Part shown: piece after piece, positions 3,652-29,873 of the stretch
Layout: each line of letters opens with the position of its first letter
How positions within the stretch are numbered: position 1 is the stretch's first letter
Sequence record: NZ_CP104306.1
Source: a plasmid
Strand: one strand, 5' to 3'
Length of the DNA stretch: 64,000 bases
Notes under the pieces: generated by a model
Databases searched by the model: none
The model's input: only the letters and a program-made list of their open reading frames with translations
Told to the model about the DNA's origin: nothing
Position numbers and translations under genes: made by a program

Positions 3652-3960
3652 TTATTTCGCATACTGATTGATCTTATTCGGCCGAAAGCCAGACCAATAC
3701 TCAATCAAACGGCCTTCGTCATCGACGATCTTGACGAGTGGCAGTTGTTGAATGTGATATTTGGCCTTCAAACGCTCGACTTTATGCTGACTCCACTCAC
3801 GTTTACGCTGATCTTCTGCGCTTACATCAATGGAATTGCTTTTATCAGCATTGCCATAATAAGTATTCTGATACGGGTAACCCAGGCGATCAAACCACTT
3901 AGTTGTCATTTTACAAGCAGGGCAGTTCGGTTTGGTGTACAAAACAGCATGTGTTTTCAT
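3652..3960 (-). CDS. NrdH-like glutaredoxin-like redoxin (CPAC active site, with an internal insertion)
   Basis: N-terminal LYTKPNCPACK and C-terminal EYWSGFRPNKI match the NrdH signature WSGFRPD. Confidence 0.6.
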   Translation of the reverse strand: MKTHAVLYTKPNCPACKMTTKWFDRLGYPYQNTYYGNADKSNSIDVSAEDQRKREWSQHKVERLKAKYHIQQLPLVKIVDDEGRLIEYWSGFRPNKINQYAK

Positions 3961-3990
3961 TAATTTGATCTTCCTTTCCTTTTACCCTTG

Positions 3991-4350
3991 TTATGAGGGG
4001 GCAGGTAATCGCTGAATCAACATAGGTTCATCTATATCTAAATAAGTTTTTCGACTTGTGTGTAAGGTGTCACCAGTGCGTACCTGTGTATTGATCCAGC
4101 GAGTACAGTCCGCGTGATGTTCACCACGAAAGTAGACTTTACCAGAATTAAAGCCAACGACGGCGAATTTAGGCTGTACACAAGCAGCCGCCAATTTTTT
4201 AAGGTTAGAATCCGAAATGCTTTCCTCAGAGTTTAGCAAACGTCGCACAGTACGATCATTTATTTTAGATTGTCTGGCAAATTCTGGGTTGCTCAGATTG
4301 TTCTTATTGATGTAGTTCTGAACCATTTTACGAACAGAATCACGATCCAT
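3991..4350 (-). CDS. HTH (XRE-like) DNA-binding protein
   Basis: N-terminal LSNPEFARQSKINDRTVRRLLN is an HTH. The 3' half of the gene carries repeat copy B (4090..4147). Confidence 0.5.
   Translation of the reverse strand: MDRDSVRKMVQNYINKNNLSNPEFARQSKINDRTVRRLLNSEESISDSNLKKLAAACVQPKFAVVGFNSGKVYFRGEHHADCTRWINTQVRTGDTLHTSRKTYLDIDEPMLIQRLPAPS
4090..4147 (+). repeat. 58-bp direct repeat copy B (partner of 1148..1205)
   Basis: attgatccagcgagtacagtccgcgtgatgttcaccacgaaagtagactttaccagaa. Same orientation as copy A; together they bracket the restriction-modification cassette and the nrdH-like gene. Confidence 0.7.
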
Positions 4351-4823
4351 TAAATCAGACTCCTTCTATTGTAATAAACCATTGTTGCAGTTAATTGTAA
4401 CCCCGTACTTGCGTATTGATGGATGATGCATGAGACATATATGCCAAAAAGACTGTAGAGCTTAGTCCCATCAAGATAATCAAAGACAAAACCCAGCGTG
4501 TTCTTAATTTTATATGGAAGTCCTTTCTAATACATAGTGGTGGCCTTGCTGAGCAAATAACGCTCAGTAAGGCTTAGTTTGCGTAGGGACGGCGGGCCCT
4601 AGGCCGACCCGCACGCCCCGGCAACGCCTTGTCGTTTCCGGATAGGTAACTGTCAAGTCAAGTCTGTACCTAAACCCGATTGGTTGCCAGTTGTCGGCTA
4701 TCGTGCAGATCATGTAAGACTTGTGCATAAAGCTTGTGGCTACCGCCACGCGGGCAAGCCCGCAGGTGCCCTTTCTACTGCCAGTTTTTGCCTGGCTTTG
4801 ATTCCGCATTCAACCAGCAACAA

Positions 4824-7091: not shown

Positions 7092-8297
7092 TTACTGTCT
7101 TGGTTGAGACACAGTTGGCTCATAAACTTCATTGTGCAAAACTAGGTGGAAGATCATTCTATTTAGACGACTCATAACCGCGACCGCAATCTTCTTGGTT
7201 CCCTTAGACTGAGAGGATTGCTTTTTCATTTGGTAGAAGTCGTTAAAGCGTGTCGGTCGATATGAGGACGCACTGATAATATTAATGACTGTACGGTACA
7301 AGACCTTTCTTGCCAAAGGGTTCCCACGTTTTCGGATACGCTGTTCGGCCGTATAGTCCCCAGATTGGTAAGTGGTTAAATCAATACCAATATACGCGTT
7401 AATGGCATTGGCACTATGAAATCGCCGAATATCGCCTAATTCCGCGATAATACACAACGCTGATTTAAGCGCAATCCCAGGAATTGTCGTTAAAATTGCA
7501 ACCTCAGGCAAGTTTGTACCAATTTTAGCCATCTCCTCAATTAAAGATTTTTTTGAGCGGTCGAGACGTTCAACTTCATATGCTAACTCGGTAACTCGCT
7601 TAAGCGCGTATGAATCAATATCTACTGCTGGCCCTGAACTTTTGGCCAACTCCAGGAGATGTTCAGCTAAATGCTGAGCCCGTTTAGGGCCCATATTCTT
7701 TGAAGTAGCTTTCAATATAATTGACGTTAATTCGGTGGAACTATGTTGTAACACCAGATATGGGTGTGGAAATATCTGGACAATGTGCCAGTATAAGGCC
7801 CCCTCAGTCCTACTTAGAAAATGTTCTATTTCCGGGAAAGTAAGCTGTAATTCATGATGAAGGCGATTCTTATTACGCACGACGTCGTCGTTGTGCTCTT
7901 GATAGATTCGATGTAGATCACGTAATTCTGTGTATTCAGGCTTTTCTTGAAACGATGGTGCAAAATTGTTTCTGGACATCGCTTCTGCCAGACCAACAGC
8001 GTCAACCGAATCTGTTTTGACAATTCTAAAACTGTCCATTACTTTCTTAGCTTTTAGGGGATTTATCTCAGTATACAGCCAACCGTTACGATGAAAAAAT
8101 GCGCGCCACGGTCGTGAGTAGATTCCTGTTGATTCAAATATAATCTTTGGTTCCCTAAAGCTGTTTAACTCATCTTCGAGTCGCTCAAACCCTTCACGAT
8201 TGCTTGATAGCTTAAATTCTTTGATAACTTGTCTATCAATCAAAACGGCCACATTAGCTGTGTGTTTACTGATATCAATACCAAATATGCATTCCAT
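7092..8297 (-). CDS. IS110-family transposase (DEDD recombinase)
   Basis: N-terminal MECIFGIDISKHTANVAV (RuvC-like) and C-terminal HSANAINAYIGIDLTTYQSG are typical of IS110. The start is chosen at ATG 8295-8297, preceded by AAAGGTGG. The tracked ORF extends to 8351. Confidence 0.85.
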   Translation of the reverse strand: MECIFGIDISKHTANVAVLIDRQVIKEFKLSSNREGFERLEDELNSFREPKIIFESTGIYSRPWRAFFHRNGWLYTEINPLKAKKVMDSFRIVKTDSVDAVGLAEAMSRNNFAPSFQEKPEYTELRDLHRIYQEHNDDVVRNKNRLHHELQLTFPEIEHFLSRTEGALYWHIVQIFPHPYLVLQHSSTELTSIILKATSKNMGPKRAQHLAEHLLELAKSSGPAVDIDSYALKRVTELAYEVERLDRSKKSLIEEMAKIGTNLPEVAILTTIPGIALKSALCIIAELGDIRRFHSANAINAYIGIDLTTYQSGDYTAEQRIRKRGNPLARKVLYRTVINIISASSYRPTRFNDFYQMKKQSSQSKGTKKIAVAVMSRLNRMIFHLVLHNEVYEPTVSQPRQ

Positions 8298-8540
8298 TTG
8301 ATACACCACCTTTTGAAGTTGTTTCACCGACTCACTCATCTCAATTTTCAATACACGGCGTCAAGCGCCAACACTCTTCGATCGAGTTCATTGATGAATC
8401 TGCGAAGTTGCCAGTTTTTTTTGCGACGTCTTTGCGCCAAAATAACCTCCGACATGTCAACTCCGTTACCACTGTACCAAAAAAGCTTAGTGGTGAATCA
8501 CAACCCCGTCGGATCATGGTTCATCACTAAGCTTAGAATG
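8298..8540 (-). ncRNA. Candidate IS110 bridge/guide RNA region (non-coding left end upstream of the transposase)
   Basis: IS110 elements encode a structured bridge RNA in their non-coding end (established knowledge). Here a 15-bp inverted repeat AAGCTTAGTGGTGAA ... TTCATCACTAAGCTT lies at 8483-8534. Confidence 0.3.
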
Positions 8541-11800: not shown

Positions 11801-13045
11801 CTAGTAAAAGCGCGTCTGTTGTTCCTGTTTCTTCTTGTCTTTTTCGCGTTCGCGATCCTGATCAGCCTGGCGTCTTTGATATTCGCGTTTGGCTAACCGC
11901 TGTGCCTTGATATCGGCGCTGAAAATCTTTTGTAGGCCATTCAAGTGATTGGCTACTGATGGTTGATGCTGCGTTTTAGAGACTGCCTCCTGCTCAGAAC
12001 GATAAGCTGATATATCTTTTAAAATGCTGTTACCCATCCGGGCATACAGTTCATGTAATTTGTTATCGGTGTAGTCTTGCGCACGGTTAGCTTCTTTTGT
12101 GCCACTACCATACAAGGCTTCACGGAAACGTGTTTCTTGTGTGAGTAGTTGTTTAAATTCGCCCAACTCTTCTGGCTTACAACGCATCAAATAGTTTCGT
12201 GACATGGCATCTAACTGCTCACGATATGGCTGCATGGCATTGTTGTTGTACTTCCAAAGGCGGCGATCACGCGGCAAGCTTTTGACAAGCTCTTGATACC
12301 TAACGGCAAAGTCTAGGCTGCTCTGATGACGCCAAACAGAACGCTGATCGGGTTGCAGTCGTTGACGAATGAGGTCACTGATCCGTGCAAGTGAACGATC
12401 GCGATCAACCATTTCGTTAGCAAAGGCAGCTTTGAAATGGTTCAAGATCTTCTTGGGTACATAACCTTTGCGCTGCCATTCTTGATAGGTCTCACCGTGC
12501 CTACCTTCGACCGTAACTCGTTTCCATTCACGGGTAGGTTGCGGCTCCACAATGGCAACATGGATATGAATGTTGTCTGTGTTGCGGTGAATTGCAGCAG
12601 ACCAAATAGCTGAATGTGCCATACCCATCTTGCTGGTGAAGTCATGCATGGCGACCCGGGTAGCGTCCCGCAACTTGGCTTCATCTAATTGTTTGGTCTT
12701 CGGATTGTAGACATTGTTTTCAACTAGGAAGTCGTTACGGAAACTGAATACGGACTGCCACATGACTGACTGATGCTTTTGTGCCACGGTGAATTGTTTC
12801 TTTAACTGGACGCGTTGTGTTGGTGTCAGACGATCATATTGATCAGTGAAGATGCCGGAAGACTTTTTCGGATTTTCCATGTAGTGGTTGTAGCCGTCAA
12901 CTGATAGAATGTTTTGTTGGTCAAAGTGATCAATCCGAATCGCCTCGTCTCGATCAATGTAGTTGATGTAGCTGCCAAACTTTTTGGCATGGGCCGCGAC
13001 AAAATCAGTCACATTGACAATGCCAGGCGATACACGATTAGGCAT
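11801..13045 (-). CDS. Conjugative relaxase, MOBQ/MobA-MobL type (414 aa)
   Basis: Catalytic Tyr region FGSYINYIDRDEA near the N-terminus. Motif III is HRNTDNIHIHVAIV (HxDxD/NxHxH). Start MPNRVS has RBS GAGGTGGTGG. Confidence 0.8.
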   Translation of the reverse strand: MPNRVSPGIVNVTDFVAAHAKKFGSYINYIDRDEAIRIDHFDQQNILSVDGYNHYMENPKKSSGIFTDQYDRLTPTQRVQLKKQFTVAQKHQSVMWQSVFSFRNDFLVENNVYNPKTKQLDEAKLRDATRVAMHDFTSKMGMAHSAIWSAAIHRNTDNIHIHVAIVEPQPTREWKRVTVEGRHGETYQEWQRKGYVPKKILNHFKAAFANEMVDRDRSLARISDLIRQRLQPDQRSVWRHQSSLDFAVRYQELVKSLPRDRRLWKYNNNAMQPYREQLDAMSRNYLMRCKPEELGEFKQLLTQETRFREALYGSGTKEANRAQDYTDNKLHELYARMGNSILKDISAYRSEQEAVSKTQHQPSVANHLNGLQKIFSADIKAQRLAKREYQRRQADQDREREKDKKKQEQQTRFY

Positions 13046-13475
13046 CAGCACCACCACCTCGATGGTGTACTTGAGTCGTTTGGTGACGAATGTACTCCGT
13101 CTTAATTTGGTCACTGACAATCCTACGAGCAACCGTAGTTGGCTTCATTGTGTCATCGGGAATGGGTAAATTATCCCAGCCGTTTTGAACGACAACACCG
13201 TCAAACAGTTTCAACAAGACCAGCAAGTTACGGTCGATAAAGTTAATCTTTTTCTCAAGCGGGGCAAGTGCGTTCTGAACACTCTCGCTGACGTTAGAGG
13301 CACGTTCGTTAGCTTGGTCAAGTTGATTATTAAGCCGGTGCTCATCATCCAACAGTGACTTAATCGCTGCACTAAGGGTCTCAATTTGATGAGCCGCCAT
13401 ATAAGTTTTTAGCTCTTCATCTGAGGCTAACGCATCATCACTTGAGTCAACAAAAAATGTCTTCCTGGTTCGCAA
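13038..13475 (-). CDS. Relaxosome accessory protein candidate (about 145 aa)
   Basis: Overlaps the relaxase start by 8 nt. Coiled-coil-like. Start at TTG 13473-13475 after AGGAGGG. The tracked ORF extends to 13493. Confidence 0.45.
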   Translation of the reverse strand: MRTRKTFFVDSSDDALASDEELKTYMAAHQIETLSAAIKSLLDDEHRLNNQLDQANERASNVSESVQNALAPLEKKINFIDRNLLVLLKLFDGVVVQNGWDNLPIPDDTMKPTTVARRIVSDQIKTEYIRHQTTQVHHRGGGADA

Positions 13476-13513
13476 AGTAATCCCTCCTAACAAAGTTATT
13501 GAAGTTAATGAAG

Positions 13514-13771
13514 CTAATGAAGCTGTTCGACCTCTTTACTAAGGTCTCGAAAAGCAGCCGTGTTTTGTTCAATGATGACTGCCATTTGCTTCGTTAGCTC
13601 GCGCAAATCTGACACATCACCGCTGAGTAAGTGGTCGGTTGCGTCATGATGAATGAGCATTCGAAGATACTCTTCGCGTGACAAACGGCTGCGCTTTGCT
13701 GCATCATCCAAGGCAGCTAAATCTTGTTCAGAAAGATTTCTAATGATGGTTGTATGAGCCAAAAAAATCAA
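13514..13771 (-). CDS. Ribbon-helix-helix-like small protein (85 aa)
   Basis: TIIRNLSEQDLAALDDAAKRSRLSREEYLRMLI fits a beta-strand, helix, helix pattern. Confidence 0.45.
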   Translation of the reverse strand: MIFLAHTTIIRNLSEQDLAALDDAAKRSRLSREEYLRMLIHHDATDHLLSGDVSDLRELTKQMAVIIEQNTAAFRDLSKEVEQLH

Positions 13772-13968
13772 TCCTTTCTTTTTATTGTTCTATTTATAAA
13801 CAGCATGGCTTCCAAAATATTTGATTTGTTGACCTTAAGGTTGTACTTAGCAAGCTCCGGATTTTGATTTAGTTCCCGTTGCTTTTCAGCTACAAGGTGA
13901 TCCAACTTTGCGATTGCCTGATCGCTCAAGGTCATCATGACTCGACGTGTTTCGTTTTGTTTATCCAT
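13768..13968 (-). CDS. CopG/RHH-family DNA-binding protein (66 aa)
   Basis: Start MDKQNE has GAAGGAGG upstream. VMMTLSDQAIAKLDHLVAEKQ is a canonical RHH. Confidence 0.55.
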   Translation of the reverse strand: MDKQNETRRVMMTLSDQAIAKLDHLVAEKQRELNQNPELAKYNLKVNKSNILEAMLFINRTIKRKD

Positions 13969-14290
13969 CTCAAAGCCTCCTTCATAGTGATGACAAACTG
14001 TCGCCTGGCAAACCCACACAGCATTAAAATCGCGTCACGTTACCGGACGATTTTTGGTAAACCGTTACGACTACTCTGGTCAAAACGTGAACGTTTTTCA
14101 CCAGGCAAACGATCAGAAAAATCTGAGTTGCGAACCAACCGGCCTCAAAAATGGCCCGATCGAAACAAGCGCATTTTTAGGGTGATCTGACATGTCCCTA
14201 AATAAAGAAAGAGCATAAGGTAAAACTGCTATCAAAATTGATAGAAACCGCAGTGCGGTTTGTTTTATAGTGCTAGCAGGTAGATGCTTT

Positions 14291-14431
14291 TACGTGTAGT
14301 GATTCCAAACTTACTCCACGTGAAAAAAACTTGAACGTGTAGTAAAACGCGTTTTACTACACGTGGATTATGCTTGTTGTGACAAGGGATAGCGCCGTTT
14401 ACGTGTAGTAAATGACGTTTTACTCCACCTG
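14291..14431. promoter_or_regulatory. oriT-like / operator inverted-repeat array: a perfect 30-bp palindrome plus two imperfect flanking copies
   Basis: ACGTGTAGTAAAACGCGTTTTACTACACGT at 14335-14364 is a perfect palindrome. Related units ACGTGTAGTGA..TTACTCCACGTG (14292-14322) and ACGTGTAGTAAATGACGTTTTACTCCACCTG (14401-14431). The array sits between the mob/RHH operon start and the end of the T4SS operon. Confidence 0.5.
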
Positions 14432-14562
14432 AGCAAGAATATTCGCTTTTTGGTCATAAACGAGCACTTTTTGGTGTTGCAACGTTCACAACTAACTAGT
14501 GACTTGACGACAACATGAAGTGCACACGACAAGTTGCACTAACCGCAATCTCACATGTGCAC

Positions 14563-15396
14563 TCAATGATGAGCGTAATGTTGATAGCGCTTCTCGTAAC
14601 TTTGAAGATTACTTTGCGCCACCTTAATGGCACTTTGCGTGTCGCTGATGTCCTGTTTCTTGTCTTGTATATTCGTTTCTGTTTGCGTCATGCGTTGTTC
14701 AGTTGCTCGTTTTTGTTTGCCGACTTGCAAGTTGGCGGTGTCTTTTTGACGGGCTAAACTAGTCTTCAAAATTTGCAGATCATGATTGTATTGGACTAGC
14801 TTCTTTTCTAAGGAAGCGACTCGGTTGGTCGTGTTGCTGCGCAAAATCTTGAGGTAGTTTTTAAGATAAACGCCTTCGGTTAGGGACGTTACCTTGGTAG
14901 GATGGCGAAGGTCTAGGAGAACAAAATCAATGGCACTCGTGACCCCTGACAAGTCTTTTTTGGAACCTAGTTTGACAAACAAGCGGCCATTGCTGATCGC
15001 ACTTTTCTTAAGCTTGACCACGTAATAGTCATCGGCGATCTGTTTCAATTGGGTATGAAAGTCATTGCCGCTATGTGTCTTTTTGGTCACGACGACAGTC
15101 GTTAAAGGTGCCAGCGGGTCGATGGTGTTCTTGGTTACATAGAAGTACATGGCGGCGTTTTGTTTGTCTGTATCGACCCCGGCAAATTGAAACTGGTTGT
15201 TGCCTTGATCGAAAGTCTGGCCAAGACTGATTTGTTTGTTGTCGGTTTGGCGAGGCCATAAAACGATCGCAAAAATGAGCAAAGAAAAAGCTGCTAGGAG
15301 AATGCCAAGCAGTTTGACGTAGCGAAGACTGTACTTGTTTTTGTCTTGAAAGTGAATACCTTGATTCATCATTTTAATGTTCACCTGCCTTGCCAC
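14563..15396 (-). CDS. T4SS-associated membrane-anchored protein with a coiled-coil C-terminus (277 aa)
   Basis: Single N-terminal transmembrane helix (LLGILLAAFSLLIFAIVLW). Last gene of the tra operon. Confidence 0.5.
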   Translation of the reverse strand: MARQVNIKMMNQGIHFQDKNKYSLRYVKLLGILLAAFSLLIFAIVLWPRQTDNKQISLGQTFDQGNNQFQFAGVDTDKQNAAMYFYVTKNTIDPLAPLTTVVVTKKTHSGNDFHTQLKQIADDYYVVKLKKSAISNGRLFVKLGSKKDLSGVTSAIDFVLLDLRHPTKVTSLTEGVYLKNYLKILRSNTTNRVASLEKKLVQYNHDLQILKTSLARQKDTANLQVGKQKRATEQRMTQTETNIQDKKQDISDTQSAIKVAQSNLQSYEKRYQHYAHH

Positions 15397-29846: not shown

Positions 29847-29873
29847 AAAAGCGCGCCCTAGGGCGCGCTTTTT
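29847..29873. terminator. Bidirectional intrinsic terminator
   Basis: AAAAGCGCGCCC TA GGGCGCGCTTTTT has a perfect 8-bp GC stem with A-run and T-run flanks. It overlaps the stop of the minus-strand gene 29858..30076. Confidence 0.6.

What the first reader, a model, noticed from the sequence alone, without database searches (positions are those of the whole stretch)
14291..14431. oriT-like array: a perfect 30-bp palindrome and two degenerate copies between the mob and tra operons
ACGTGTAGTAAAACGCGTTTTACTACACGT is a perfect palindrome, flanked by two related inverted-repeat units sharing the ACGTGTAGT half-site. The array lies directly upstream of the RHH-gene / accessory / MOBQ-relaxase operon and downstream of the T4SS operon. 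It is a strong candidate for the relaxosome assembly site and RHH operator. No canonical MOBQ nic core (AAGTGCGCCCT) was found, so the nic site may be novel.
Basis: seen in the sequence. Interest (0 to 1): 0.6.

Follow-up and report, generated by a model that had tools for sequence, protein, structure and literature searches.

The report
Accessory-protein sites in a pLS20-type oriT
The three palindromic repeats are real and lie in the transfer origin of a Lacticaseibacillus plasmid of the pLS20 (MOBL) type, where they are most likely docking sites for an accessory DNA-binding protein rather than the place where the DNA is cut, so this is a new variant of a known kind of element.

Summary
A perfect 30-bp palindrome lies at 14335-14364, with two degenerate units at 14292-14321 and 14401-14430.

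The array does lie in an oriT. The relaxase, however, is MobL/MobP2 (pLS20 family), not MOBQ. The operon is an extra RHH gene, an Aux1 homolog, an Aux2 homolog and then MobL.

Just left of the array (14211-14279) is a core: GAGCATAAGG, a covarying hairpin, AAACCGCAGTGCGGTTT and a TGnnnnCA box. The same core occurs in the experimentally defined oriT of pLS20. It also occurs upstream of MobL genes in Enterococcus, Lactococcus, Vagococcus and Sporolactobacillus.

The array occupies the slot where pLS20 has its three Aux2 sites (TGTGCAT). Each lineage has its own repeats in that slot.

Sister Lacticaseibacillus plasmids carry an alternative array (TGTTGrAT-N11-ATyCAACA x3). The only other diverged segment in them is the N-terminal half of the Aux2 homolog. 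The two match in 37 of 41 PLSDB loci.

Best model: the units are binding sites of the Aux2 (TraM-analog) protein and act as a specificity cassette. The nic site is not in the array.

Small Rep_3 plasmids without a relaxase carry this oriT, and some carry both array types.

The parts
14292..14321 (.). Array unit 1: ACGTGTAGT-N12-ACTCCACGT (degenerate inverted repeat)
   Evidence: In 10 related type-A sequences the half-sites are conserved and the 12-nt interior varies freely. It is not a stable hairpin as ssDNA (z -1.5).
14335..14364 (.). Array unit 2: perfect 30-bp palindrome ACGTGTAGTAAAACG|CGTTTTACTACACGT
   Evidence: Conserved throughout in type-A loci. pMA3 (L004) has the symmetric double change GTGTCGT...ACGACAC. 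Stable ssDNA hairpin, -12 kcal/mol, z -6.25.
14401..14430 (.). Array unit 3: ACGTGTAGT-N12-ACTCCACCT
   Evidence: In six of the 10 type-A sequences (five small-plasmid copies and large plasmid L024) the left half-site is flipped to ACTACACGT, which turns the unit into a direct repeat. Not a stable hairpin (z -1.15).
14280..14467 (.). Type-A array cassette: the whole segment that is replaced in type-B plasmids. It holds the three units plus conserved inter-unit blocks such as GTGACAAGGGATAGCGCC.
   Evidence: Identity scan of window against L026: 33-67% here and 88-100% on both sides. Alignments of A and B arrays.
14211..14220 (+). Conserved box GAGCATAAGG of the oriT core
   Evidence: Invariant in 13 aligned cores, including pLS20. 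Found upstream of MobL genes in many genera.
14226..14244 (+). Hairpin 1: L arm CTGCTATCA, loop, R1 arm TGATAG
   Evidence: Covaries between lineages: 91% of cells paired, 4 of 6 pairs with changes on both sides, 0 of 500 shuffles reach the covariation score.
14245..14261 (+). Hairpin 2: AAACCGCAgTGCGGTTT, nearly invariant
   Evidence: 99% of cells paired, with two compensatory changes at the stem base. Present in oriT of pLS20.
14271..14279 (+). R2 box TGCTAGCAG. It is a second copy of the R1 arm and is complementary to the L arm. It corresponds in position to TGGTACCA, the mapped Aux1 site of pLS20.
   Evidence: L-R2 88% of cells paired, 4 of 9 pairs with changes on both sides. Aux1 site from PMC5675868.
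14139..14164 (+). CCGGCC...GGCCCGATCGAA: weak resemblance to the pLS20 sequence at the published nic (AAAAAG^CCGGCCCCCGATTCCGAA). One of two candidate nic regions.
   Evidence: Read by eye, with the nic position from PMC5313138. Left flanks are not conserved between lineages, so this is only a lead.
13768..13968 (-). 66-aa RHH-like protein, an extra first gene of the mob operon. PGAP labels relatives 'plasmid replication protein'.
   Evidence: Carried together with the oriT on small relaxase-less plasmids. Its sequence does not track array type.
13514..13771 (-). 85-aa RHH protein, homolog of Aux1 of pLS20
   Evidence: FitA-like RHH. BLASTP against Aux1 of pLS20: 34% identity over 68 aa, E 1e-11.
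13038..13475 (-). 145-aa homolog of Aux2 of pLS20 (TraM analog) and proposed binder of the array. The N-terminal ~95 aa is the variable specificity part. The C-terminal ~60 aa is constant.
   Evidence: A profile of 11 syntenic homologs hits PDB 7NUV/7QNQ (Aux2pLS20) at E 1.5e-33 over the full length. The N-terminal type tracks the array type.
11801..13045 (-). MobL / MobP2 relaxase (pLS20 RelLS20 family)
   Evidence: Pfam PF18555 1.1e-112; NCBIfam NF041498 2e-103.

Best explanation
The three ~30-bp units are the distal, plasmid-specific half of a pLS20-type (MOBL) origin of transfer.

Each unit offers two 9-bp half-sites (ACGTGTAGT / ACTMCACGT) whose starts are 21 bp apart, about two helical turns. 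The most likely binder is the N-terminal ribbon-helix-helix domain of the Aux2-family protein encoded 0.8 kb away (13038-13475). In pLS20 this protein is a tetrameric analog of F-plasmid TraM.

Several tetramers loaded on the three units would build the accessory platform next to the universal core (14211-14279), where the Aux1 homolog and the MobL relaxase act. The array plus the Aux2 N-domain would then form an exchangeable specificity pair that decides which relaxosome recognises which oriT.

Shown here: the repeats, their conservation pattern, homology of the whole module and core to pLS20, the positional equivalence to the Aux2 sites, and the statistical coupling of array type to Aux2 N-domain type.

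Inferred: actual binding, stoichiometry, and the link to the coupling protein. The nic site is outside the array.
For: - The operon is an RHH66 gene, an Aux1 homolog (E 1e-11), an Aux2 homolog (profile against PDB 7NUV, E 1.5e-33) and MobL. A pLS20_p028-family T4SS gene lies nearby.
- The oriT of pLS20, read in the same orientation, has the same core: GAGCATAAGG, hairpin, AAACCGCAGTGCGGTTT, then TGGTACCA. Its three TGTGCAT Aux2 motifs sit exactly where the window has its array. Aux1 and Aux2 binding and the requirement for that half of oriT are experimental (PMC5675868). Two of the pLS20 motifs are also 21 bp apart.
- In Enterococcus, Lactococcus, Vagococcus, Sporolactobacillus and other Lacticaseibacillus loci the core is conserved, but the same slot holds a different lineage-specific repeat set.
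- Window against L026: everything is 88-100% identical except two islands, the array and the Aux2 N-terminal half with the adjoining Aux1 tail. RHH66 is 96% identical and the Aux1 RHH part is nearly identical across the two array types.
- In PLSDB, 17 loci pair array A with Aux2-A, about 20 pair array B with Aux2-B, and 4 are discordant. Two of the discordant plasmids are a reciprocal pair in one strain, and one of those has a frameshifted Aux2 gene.
- Half-sites are conserved while the interior of unit 1 varies. There is a symmetric double substitution in pMA3 and a flipped half-site in unit 3. Only unit 2 can fold as a hairpin. These point to protein half-sites, not to DNA secondary structure.
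- Type B has the same geometry: three units with similar half-site spacing at similar distances from the core.
Against: - There is no binding experiment.
- The coupling is not absolute. Two L. rhamnosus plasmids (L032, L033) have an intact Aux2-A with a B array, and L034 has Aux2-B with an A array.
- The 41 loci are related plasmids, not independent events, so part of the association could be linkage by descent.
- The Aux2 motif assignment in pLS20 (TGTGCAT) is itself an inference from EMSA with overlapping fragments.
- The window protein alone gives no PDB hit. Its family membership rests on the profile and on synteny.
- The diverged protein island also includes the C-terminal tail of the Aux1 homolog, so that tail cannot be separated from the Aux2 N-domain as the covarying partner.
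Confidence: 0.6

Rival explanations
1. The array is chiefly a transcriptional operator. One of the RHH proteins binds it to repress or autoregulate the mob operon, as F TraM does at its own promoter, with no essential role in DNA processing.
For: RHH proteins are classic repressors. The array lies upstream of the mob operon on the same strand. The small plasmids keep the first RHH gene together with the region.
Against: - The array is 320-460 bp from the first start codon.
- No promoter-like site was found on the minus strand in 13700-14800.
- RHH66 and the RHH part of the Aux1 homolog do not change when the array changes.
- In pLS20 the equivalent DNA is needed for mobilisation in cis.
- This reading is not exclusive of the main model.
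Confidence: 0.15
2. The perfect palindrome is an intrinsic terminator, or a single-strand signal (priming site or ssDNA promoter) used on the transferred strand. The flanking units are decayed copies.
For: The scan flags unit 2 on the minus strand as terminator-like, with a 13-bp stem followed by TCAAGTTTTT. It lies just after the T4SS-side operon. As ssDNA it folds at -12 kcal/mol. The array would be in the leading region if nic lies to its left on the + strand.
Against: - The T-run starts 5-6 nt after the stem, and the RNA fold prefers another structure.
- Units 1 and 3 do not fold, yet their half-sites are conserved.
- Type-B arrays have no such T-run.
- pLS20 has direct repeats, not hairpins, in this slot.
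Confidence: 0.1
3. The array belongs to a replication or partition module (iterons or a centromere with the 66-aa RHH protein) that was inherited from small Rep_3 plasmids and sits beside the mob operon by accident.
For: The whole intergenic region plus the RHH66 gene is 75-78% identical in many 3-14 kb Rep_3 plasmids. PGAP calls RHH66 a 'plasmid replication protein' and annotates a 33-aa 'replication protein' in the flank.
Against: - The theta origin of those plasmids is a separate set of 22-bp tandem iterons next to rep (PMC4766160).
- There are no tandem repeats here, and no partition ATPase is annotated next to the module in pLA103, pRCEID3.2, pMA3, pYIT356 or p0562-2.
- The same core-plus-array layout sits upstream of MobL in five other genera and in pLS20.
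- RHH66 is the same with both array types.
Confidence: 0.05

Closest known systems
oriT of Bacillus subtilis plasmid pLS20 (oriTLS20) with Aux1, Aux2 and relaxase RelLS20 (MOBL family). Sources: PMC5313138, PMC5675868, PMC8829557.
   Same: - Same gene order: oriT, Aux1, Aux2, MobL.
- Same sequence core: GAGCATAAGG, covarying hairpin, AAACCGCAGTGCGGTTT, TGnnnnCA box.
- A set of three repeated motifs lies on the T4SS side of the core, in the slot where Aux2 binds in pLS20.
- A 21-bp spacing recurs.
   Different: - The motifs here are inverted 9-bp half-sites arranged in three ~30-bp units, one a perfect palindrome. pLS20 has three direct 7-bp TGTGCAT repeats.
- An extra 66-aa RHH gene precedes the Aux1 homolog.
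- The sequence left of the core, where the pLS20 nic was mapped, is not conserved.
- Function is not tested here.
F-plasmid TraM and its sbmA/B/C sites in oriT (from my own knowledge, plus what PMC8829557 says of TraM)
   Same: A tetrameric RHH protein binds several sites in oriT next to the nic region. Aux2 is described as its structural analog. There are three binding regions.
   Different: No sequence homology was shown to TraM. There are no GANTC motifs. The host, relaxase family and site geometry all differ. The link to the coupling protein is unproven even for pLS20 Aux2.
oriT-only small plasmids and RHH-determined oriT specificity in Staphylococcus (the pWBG749 family and SmpO; from my own knowledge, not checked here)
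   Same: Small plasmids lack a relaxase but carry an oriT copy matching a co-resident conjugative plasmid. Specificity is set by an RHH accessory protein and its repeats rather than by the nic core.
   Different: Different relaxase family and sequences. Here some small plasmids carry two convergent oriT copies of different specificity, plus an RHH gene of their own.

Membership tests
pLS20-type (MOBL) oriT | Lies upstream of an operon encoding Aux1-like and Aux2-like RHH proteins and a MobL relaxase | tested here: met
   MobL PF18555 1e-112 and MobP2 2e-103. Aux1 BLASTP E 1e-11. Aux2 profile against PDB 7NUV E 1.5e-33.
pLS20-type (MOBL) oriT | Sequence similarity to the experimentally delimited 362-bp oriTLS20 | tested here: met
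   The core at 14211-14279 aligns with pLS20 (L031 3753-3683, minus strand). 32 columns are invariant across 13 cores. The array itself has no sequence similarity to pLS20.
pLS20-type (MOBL) oriT | Repeated Aux2-binding motifs in the half of oriT distal to the aux genes | tested here: inconclusive
   Position and number (three) match, and the array type covaries with the Aux2 N-domain in 37 of 41 loci. Binding was not tested.
pLS20-type (MOBL) oriT | Confers mobilisation in cis and is nicked by the relaxase at a defined site | not testable with these tools
   Needs a mobilisation assay and nic mapping.
   The relaxase is MobL/MobP2 and no MOBQ family is among the hits returned.
   No match with up to 2 mismatches in 14000-14600. 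The only 1-mismatch matches in the window are in a terminator-like palindrome at 29849-29870.
Iterons of a Rep_3 theta origin | Tandem direct repeats (about 22 bp) immediately upstream of a Rep_3 gene | tested here: not met
   No tandem repeats in 13900-14700. The 22-bp x3.7 iterons of pLA103 are elsewhere. No rep gene adjoins the array in the window.
Intrinsic terminator | G+C-rich stem followed at once by a U-tract, conserved in relatives | tested here: not met
   The stem has 4 G-C pairs in 13, the T-run starts 5-6 nt after the stem, and there is no equivalent in type-B arrays.

The most novel reading that the evidence does not exclude
MOBL origins of transfer are modular.

A universal core is shared from Bacillus pLS20 to Lactobacillales plasmids. 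It may be the real relaxase recognition or nic region, which would put the published pLS20 nic position in question.

Joined to it is an exchangeable specificity cassette: a repeat array and the matching N-terminal domain of Aux2, which are swapped as a pair although they lie 0.7 kb apart.

Small relaxase-less plasmids exploit this by carrying one or both cassette types, so that they can be moved by either kind of helper.
Probability: 0.4. Interest if true: 0.55.

Novelty: new variant of a known kind. Interest (0 to 1): 0.4.

Why it matters
Large plasmids of L. paracasei, L. casei and L. rhamnosus, species used as starters and probiotics, carry pLS20-type transfer modules whose oriT has not been described in the papers I could search.

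If the array and the Aux2 N-domain form a specificity pair, sequence alone could predict two things. One is which small 'non-mobilizable' plasmids can in fact be mobilised. 23 of the 41 PLSDB records with this array are typed non-mobilizable. The other is which helper moves them.

The conserved core would also give a simple marker for MOBL-type oriTs across Bacillota. For the pLS20 field, it raises a testable question about where these relaxases really recognise and cut.

Tried and rejected
- Rfam scan of 13700-14800 found nothing meaningful.
- The idea that the region is a rolling-circle or theta replication origin was dropped. The small plasmids have Rep_3 initiators with their own 22-bp iterons elsewhere.
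- I first thought the Aux1 homolog's RHH part covaried with the hairpin-1/R2 type. More loci refuted this: L024, L032, L033 and L035 combine the ACCCCA-type core with the window-type Aux1.
- I first read some cores as recombinant mosaics that would pinpoint nic between hairpin 2 and R2. The small plasmids turned out to carry two R2-like boxes in tandem, so that inference was withdrawn.
- I first saw a perfect array/Aux2 association in 9 loci. Enlarging the sample revealed 4 discordant plasmids.
- Literature searches for pLA103, pYIT356, pRCEID3.2, and for paracasei with oriT, found no description of this element.

Full report
**Observation**

The sequence at 14291-14431 is as described. ACGTGTAGTAAAACG|CGTTTTACTACACGT (14335-14364) is a perfect 30-nt palindrome. 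Related units lie at 14292-14321 and 14401-14430, with start-to-start spacing of 43 and 66 bp. It is the longest perfect palindrome in the window, and 50 shuffles of the window gave at most 22 nt. All four exact copies of ACGTGTAGT in the 64 kb lie here.

**Gene context**

All genes around the array are on the minus strand.

- To the right, an operon with a VirB4-like ATPase and a pLS20_p028-family protein ends at 14563.
- To the left, the mob operon starts at 13968. It encodes:
  - a 66-aa RHH-like protein (13768-13968);
  - an 85-aa RHH protein (13514-13771);
  - a 145-aa protein (13038-13475);
  - a 414-aa relaxase (11801-13045);
  - a small ORF;
  - an ArdC-N/DUF3991/Toprim protein.

The relaxase is Pfam MobL (1.1e-112) and NCBIfam MobP2 (2e-103), not MOBQ. 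The 85-aa protein is 34% identical to Aux1 of pLS20 (E 1e-11). A profile of the 145-aa protein and ten syntenic homologs hits the solved Aux2 of pLS20 (7NUV/7QNQ) at E 1.5e-33 over the full length. The single protein alone gives no hit.

The module is therefore a pLS20-type relaxosome cassette with one extra RHH gene. The window is about 99% identical here to L. paracasei plasmid pL11434-1.

**A conserved core beside the array**

BLAST of the intergenic region showed a 57-70-nt stretch (window 14209-14278) that is 85-91% identical in Enterococcus faecalis and Lactococcus petauri plasmids. It sits in the same slot there, between the T4SS operon and the RHH/RHH/MobL genes.

Loci fetched through the relaxase show the same core about 0.9-1.1 kb upstream of MobL genes that are only 42-46% identical. 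These come from Vagococcus, Sporolactobacillus and other Lacticaseibacillus species.

The core reads, on the window + strand:

- GAGCATAAGG (14211-14220);
- an L arm CTGCTATCA and an R1 arm TGATAG, forming hairpin 1;
- the nearly invariant AAACCGCAgTGCGGTTT, hairpin 2 (14245-14261);
- a second copy of the arm, R2, TGCTAGCAG (14271-14279).

Hairpin 1 and the L-R2 pairing both covary between lineages. L-R1 is 91% paired, with 4 of 6 pairs changed on both sides. L-R2 is 88% paired, with 4 of 9 pairs changed on both sides. No shuffle of 500 reached either covariation score.

**Direct comparison with pLS20**

I fetched the pLS20 region. Read in the window's orientation, the experimentally delimited oriT of pLS20 contains, in order:

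- the same core: GAGCATAAGG, GCACCA..TGGTG, AAACCGCAGTGCGGTTT;
- TGGTACCA, which is the mapped Aux1 site;
- the three TGTGCAT motifs proposed as Aux2 sites.

Two of those three motifs are 21 bp apart. Binding data are from PMC5675868. The Aux2 motifs occupy exactly the position of the window's array. In pLS20, removing that part of oriT abolished mobilisation.

The published pLS20 nic (PMC5313138) lies about 45 nt on the other side of the core, at the end of an inverted repeat next to a G+C-rich stretch. It is on the strand equivalent to the window's + strand.

The window has only a weak look-alike there (CCGGCC...GGCCCGATCGAA, 14139-14164). That flank is not conserved between lineages. I therefore cannot place nic. 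It is either near 14139-14164 or within the conserved core. In both cases it is outside the array.

**What the array is**

In every lineage the slot to the right of the core holds its own repeat set:

| Lineage | Repeat set |
|---|---|
| E. faecalis | TAGCCGAC-type palindromes |
| L. petauri | CGTCAnnnTGACG |
| Vagococcus | TAGCGGGTC x4 |
| L. suibinensis | CCCACG x6 |
| Sporolactobacillus, L. porcinae, L. manihotivorans, L. jixiensis | GTGCC/GGCAC motifs |

Within Lacticaseibacillus there are two array types.

- Type A is the one in this window.
- Type B is TGTTGrAT-N11-ATyCAACA, again in three ~30-bp units. Half-site spacing and the distances of the units from the core are similar to type A.

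In type-A alignments the half-sites are conserved while the 12-nt interior of unit 1 varies freely. pMA3 has the symmetric double change GTGTCGT...ACGACAC. In six of the ten type-A sequences (five small-plasmid copies and the large plasmid L024) the left half-site of unit 3 is flipped. Only unit 2 folds as a stable hairpin. This is the signature of protein half-sites, not of a structural DNA element.

**Which protein**

I compared the window with L026, a type-B plasmid whose relaxase is 95% identical. The whole 2.9 kb is 88-100% identical except for two islands.

- One island is the array (about 14262-14470).
- The other is 13200-13570. It encodes the N-terminal ~95 aa of the Aux2 homolog plus the C-terminal tail of the Aux1 homolog.

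The 700 bp between the islands are 88-100% identical. That stretch includes the RHH66 gene, the RHH part of the Aux1 homolog and the core. RHH66 is 96% identical between the two, and the Aux1 RHH part is almost unchanged.

The C-terminal ~60 aa of the Aux2 homolog are identical in both types. This fits a constant part that interacts with other proteins and a variable DNA-binding part.

Across PLSDB, adjacent combinations are as follows:

| Aux2 N-domain type | Array type | Loci |
|---|---|---|
| A | A | 17 |
| B | B | about 20 (two with altered spacing) |
| discordant | | 4 |

The discordant ones are real. L034 and L036 are a reciprocal pair in one strain, L. paracasei L1, and the Aux2 gene of L036 is frameshifted. 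L032 and L033 (L. rhamnosus) have an intact Aux2-A with a B array and remain unexplained.

The loci are related plasmids, so 37 of 41 is not a probability. Even so, it is hard to explain without functional coupling, because the intervening markers are shuffled.

**Small plasmids**

The left flank, the core, the array and a 64-70% identical RHH66 gene also occur on many 3-14 kb Rep_3 plasmids with no relaxase, including pLA103, pMA3 and p0562-2.

- Their theta origin is a separate set of 22-bp iterons next to rep (PMC4766160).
- pRCEID3.2 and pYIT356 carry two convergent copies, one with array A and one with array B.
- 23 of the 41 PLSDB records with array A are typed non-mobilizable.
- A parallel case is E. 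faecalis pMP5-8. It has the enterococcal version of the core and part of its array beside a mobV gene.

These look like oriT-only hitchhikers. That reading is an inference.

**Rivals**

- An operator role is possible and is not exclusive of the main model. No promoter-like site was found on the gene strand, and the array is more than 320 bp from the first gene.
- The terminator reading of unit 2 is weak. The T-run is displaced, the RNA fold prefers another structure, and type B lacks the T-run.
- A replication or partition role is contradicted by the separate iterons, by the absence of tandem repeats, and by the conserved MobL synteny in six genera.

**Verdict**

The repeats are real and non-random. 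They belong to a MOBL (pLS20-type) oriT, most likely as the binding array of the Aux2-family accessory protein.

The functional centre of the oriT lies just outside the reported coordinates.

It is a new variant of a known kind. The modular core-plus-cassette picture and the dual-oriT small plasmids are the parts worth testing.

Noticed in passing
window 29847-29872: Perfect 26-nt palindrome AAAAGCGCGCCCTAGGGCGCGCTTTT between convergent small ORFs. It looks like a bidirectional intrinsic terminator.
   Followed up: partly
window 14024-14122 (minus strand): PGAP annotates a 33-aa 'replication protein' here in near-identical plasmids. It lies in the conserved non-coding flank between the RHH66 gene and the oriT core and is probably not a real gene.
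   Followed up: no
window 13768-13968; L002 6688-6867; L004 3012-3191; L006 1-180: The 66-aa RHH-like first gene of the mob operon has no Pfam or NCBIfam hit. PGAP names it 'plasmid replication protein'. It travels with the oriT on small plasmids that lack a relaxase, and it stays the same whichever array type is present. Its role is unknown.
   Followed up: partly
L003 (pRCEID3.2) 2103-2330 and 2500-2864; L005 (pYIT356) 3826-4060 and about 4250-4590: Two convergent copies of the oriT core on one small plasmid, one followed by a type-A array and the other by a type-B array.
   Followed up: partly
L008 (E. faecalis pMP5-8) 1970-2080: A MOBL-type oriT core and part of the enterococcal repeat array sit directly upstream of a mobV relaxase gene on a 7-kb plasmid. 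The plasmid may thus have two mobilisation routes.
   Followed up: no
L034 (CP080337, p1) and L036 (CP080339, p3), L. paracasei strain L1: The two plasmids of one strain carry reciprocal mismatched combinations of array type and Aux2 type. The Aux2 gene on p3 is frameshifted after residue 23.
   Followed up: yes
L031 (pLS20) 3683-3753, minus strand: The published 362-bp oriT of pLS20 contains the core shared by MobL loci of many genera. The published nic lies about 45 nt outside it, in a flank that is not conserved elsewhere.
   Followed up: partly
window 7092-8351 (minus strand): An IS110-family transposase gene lies just downstream of the ArdC/DUF3991/Toprim gene.
   Followed up: no
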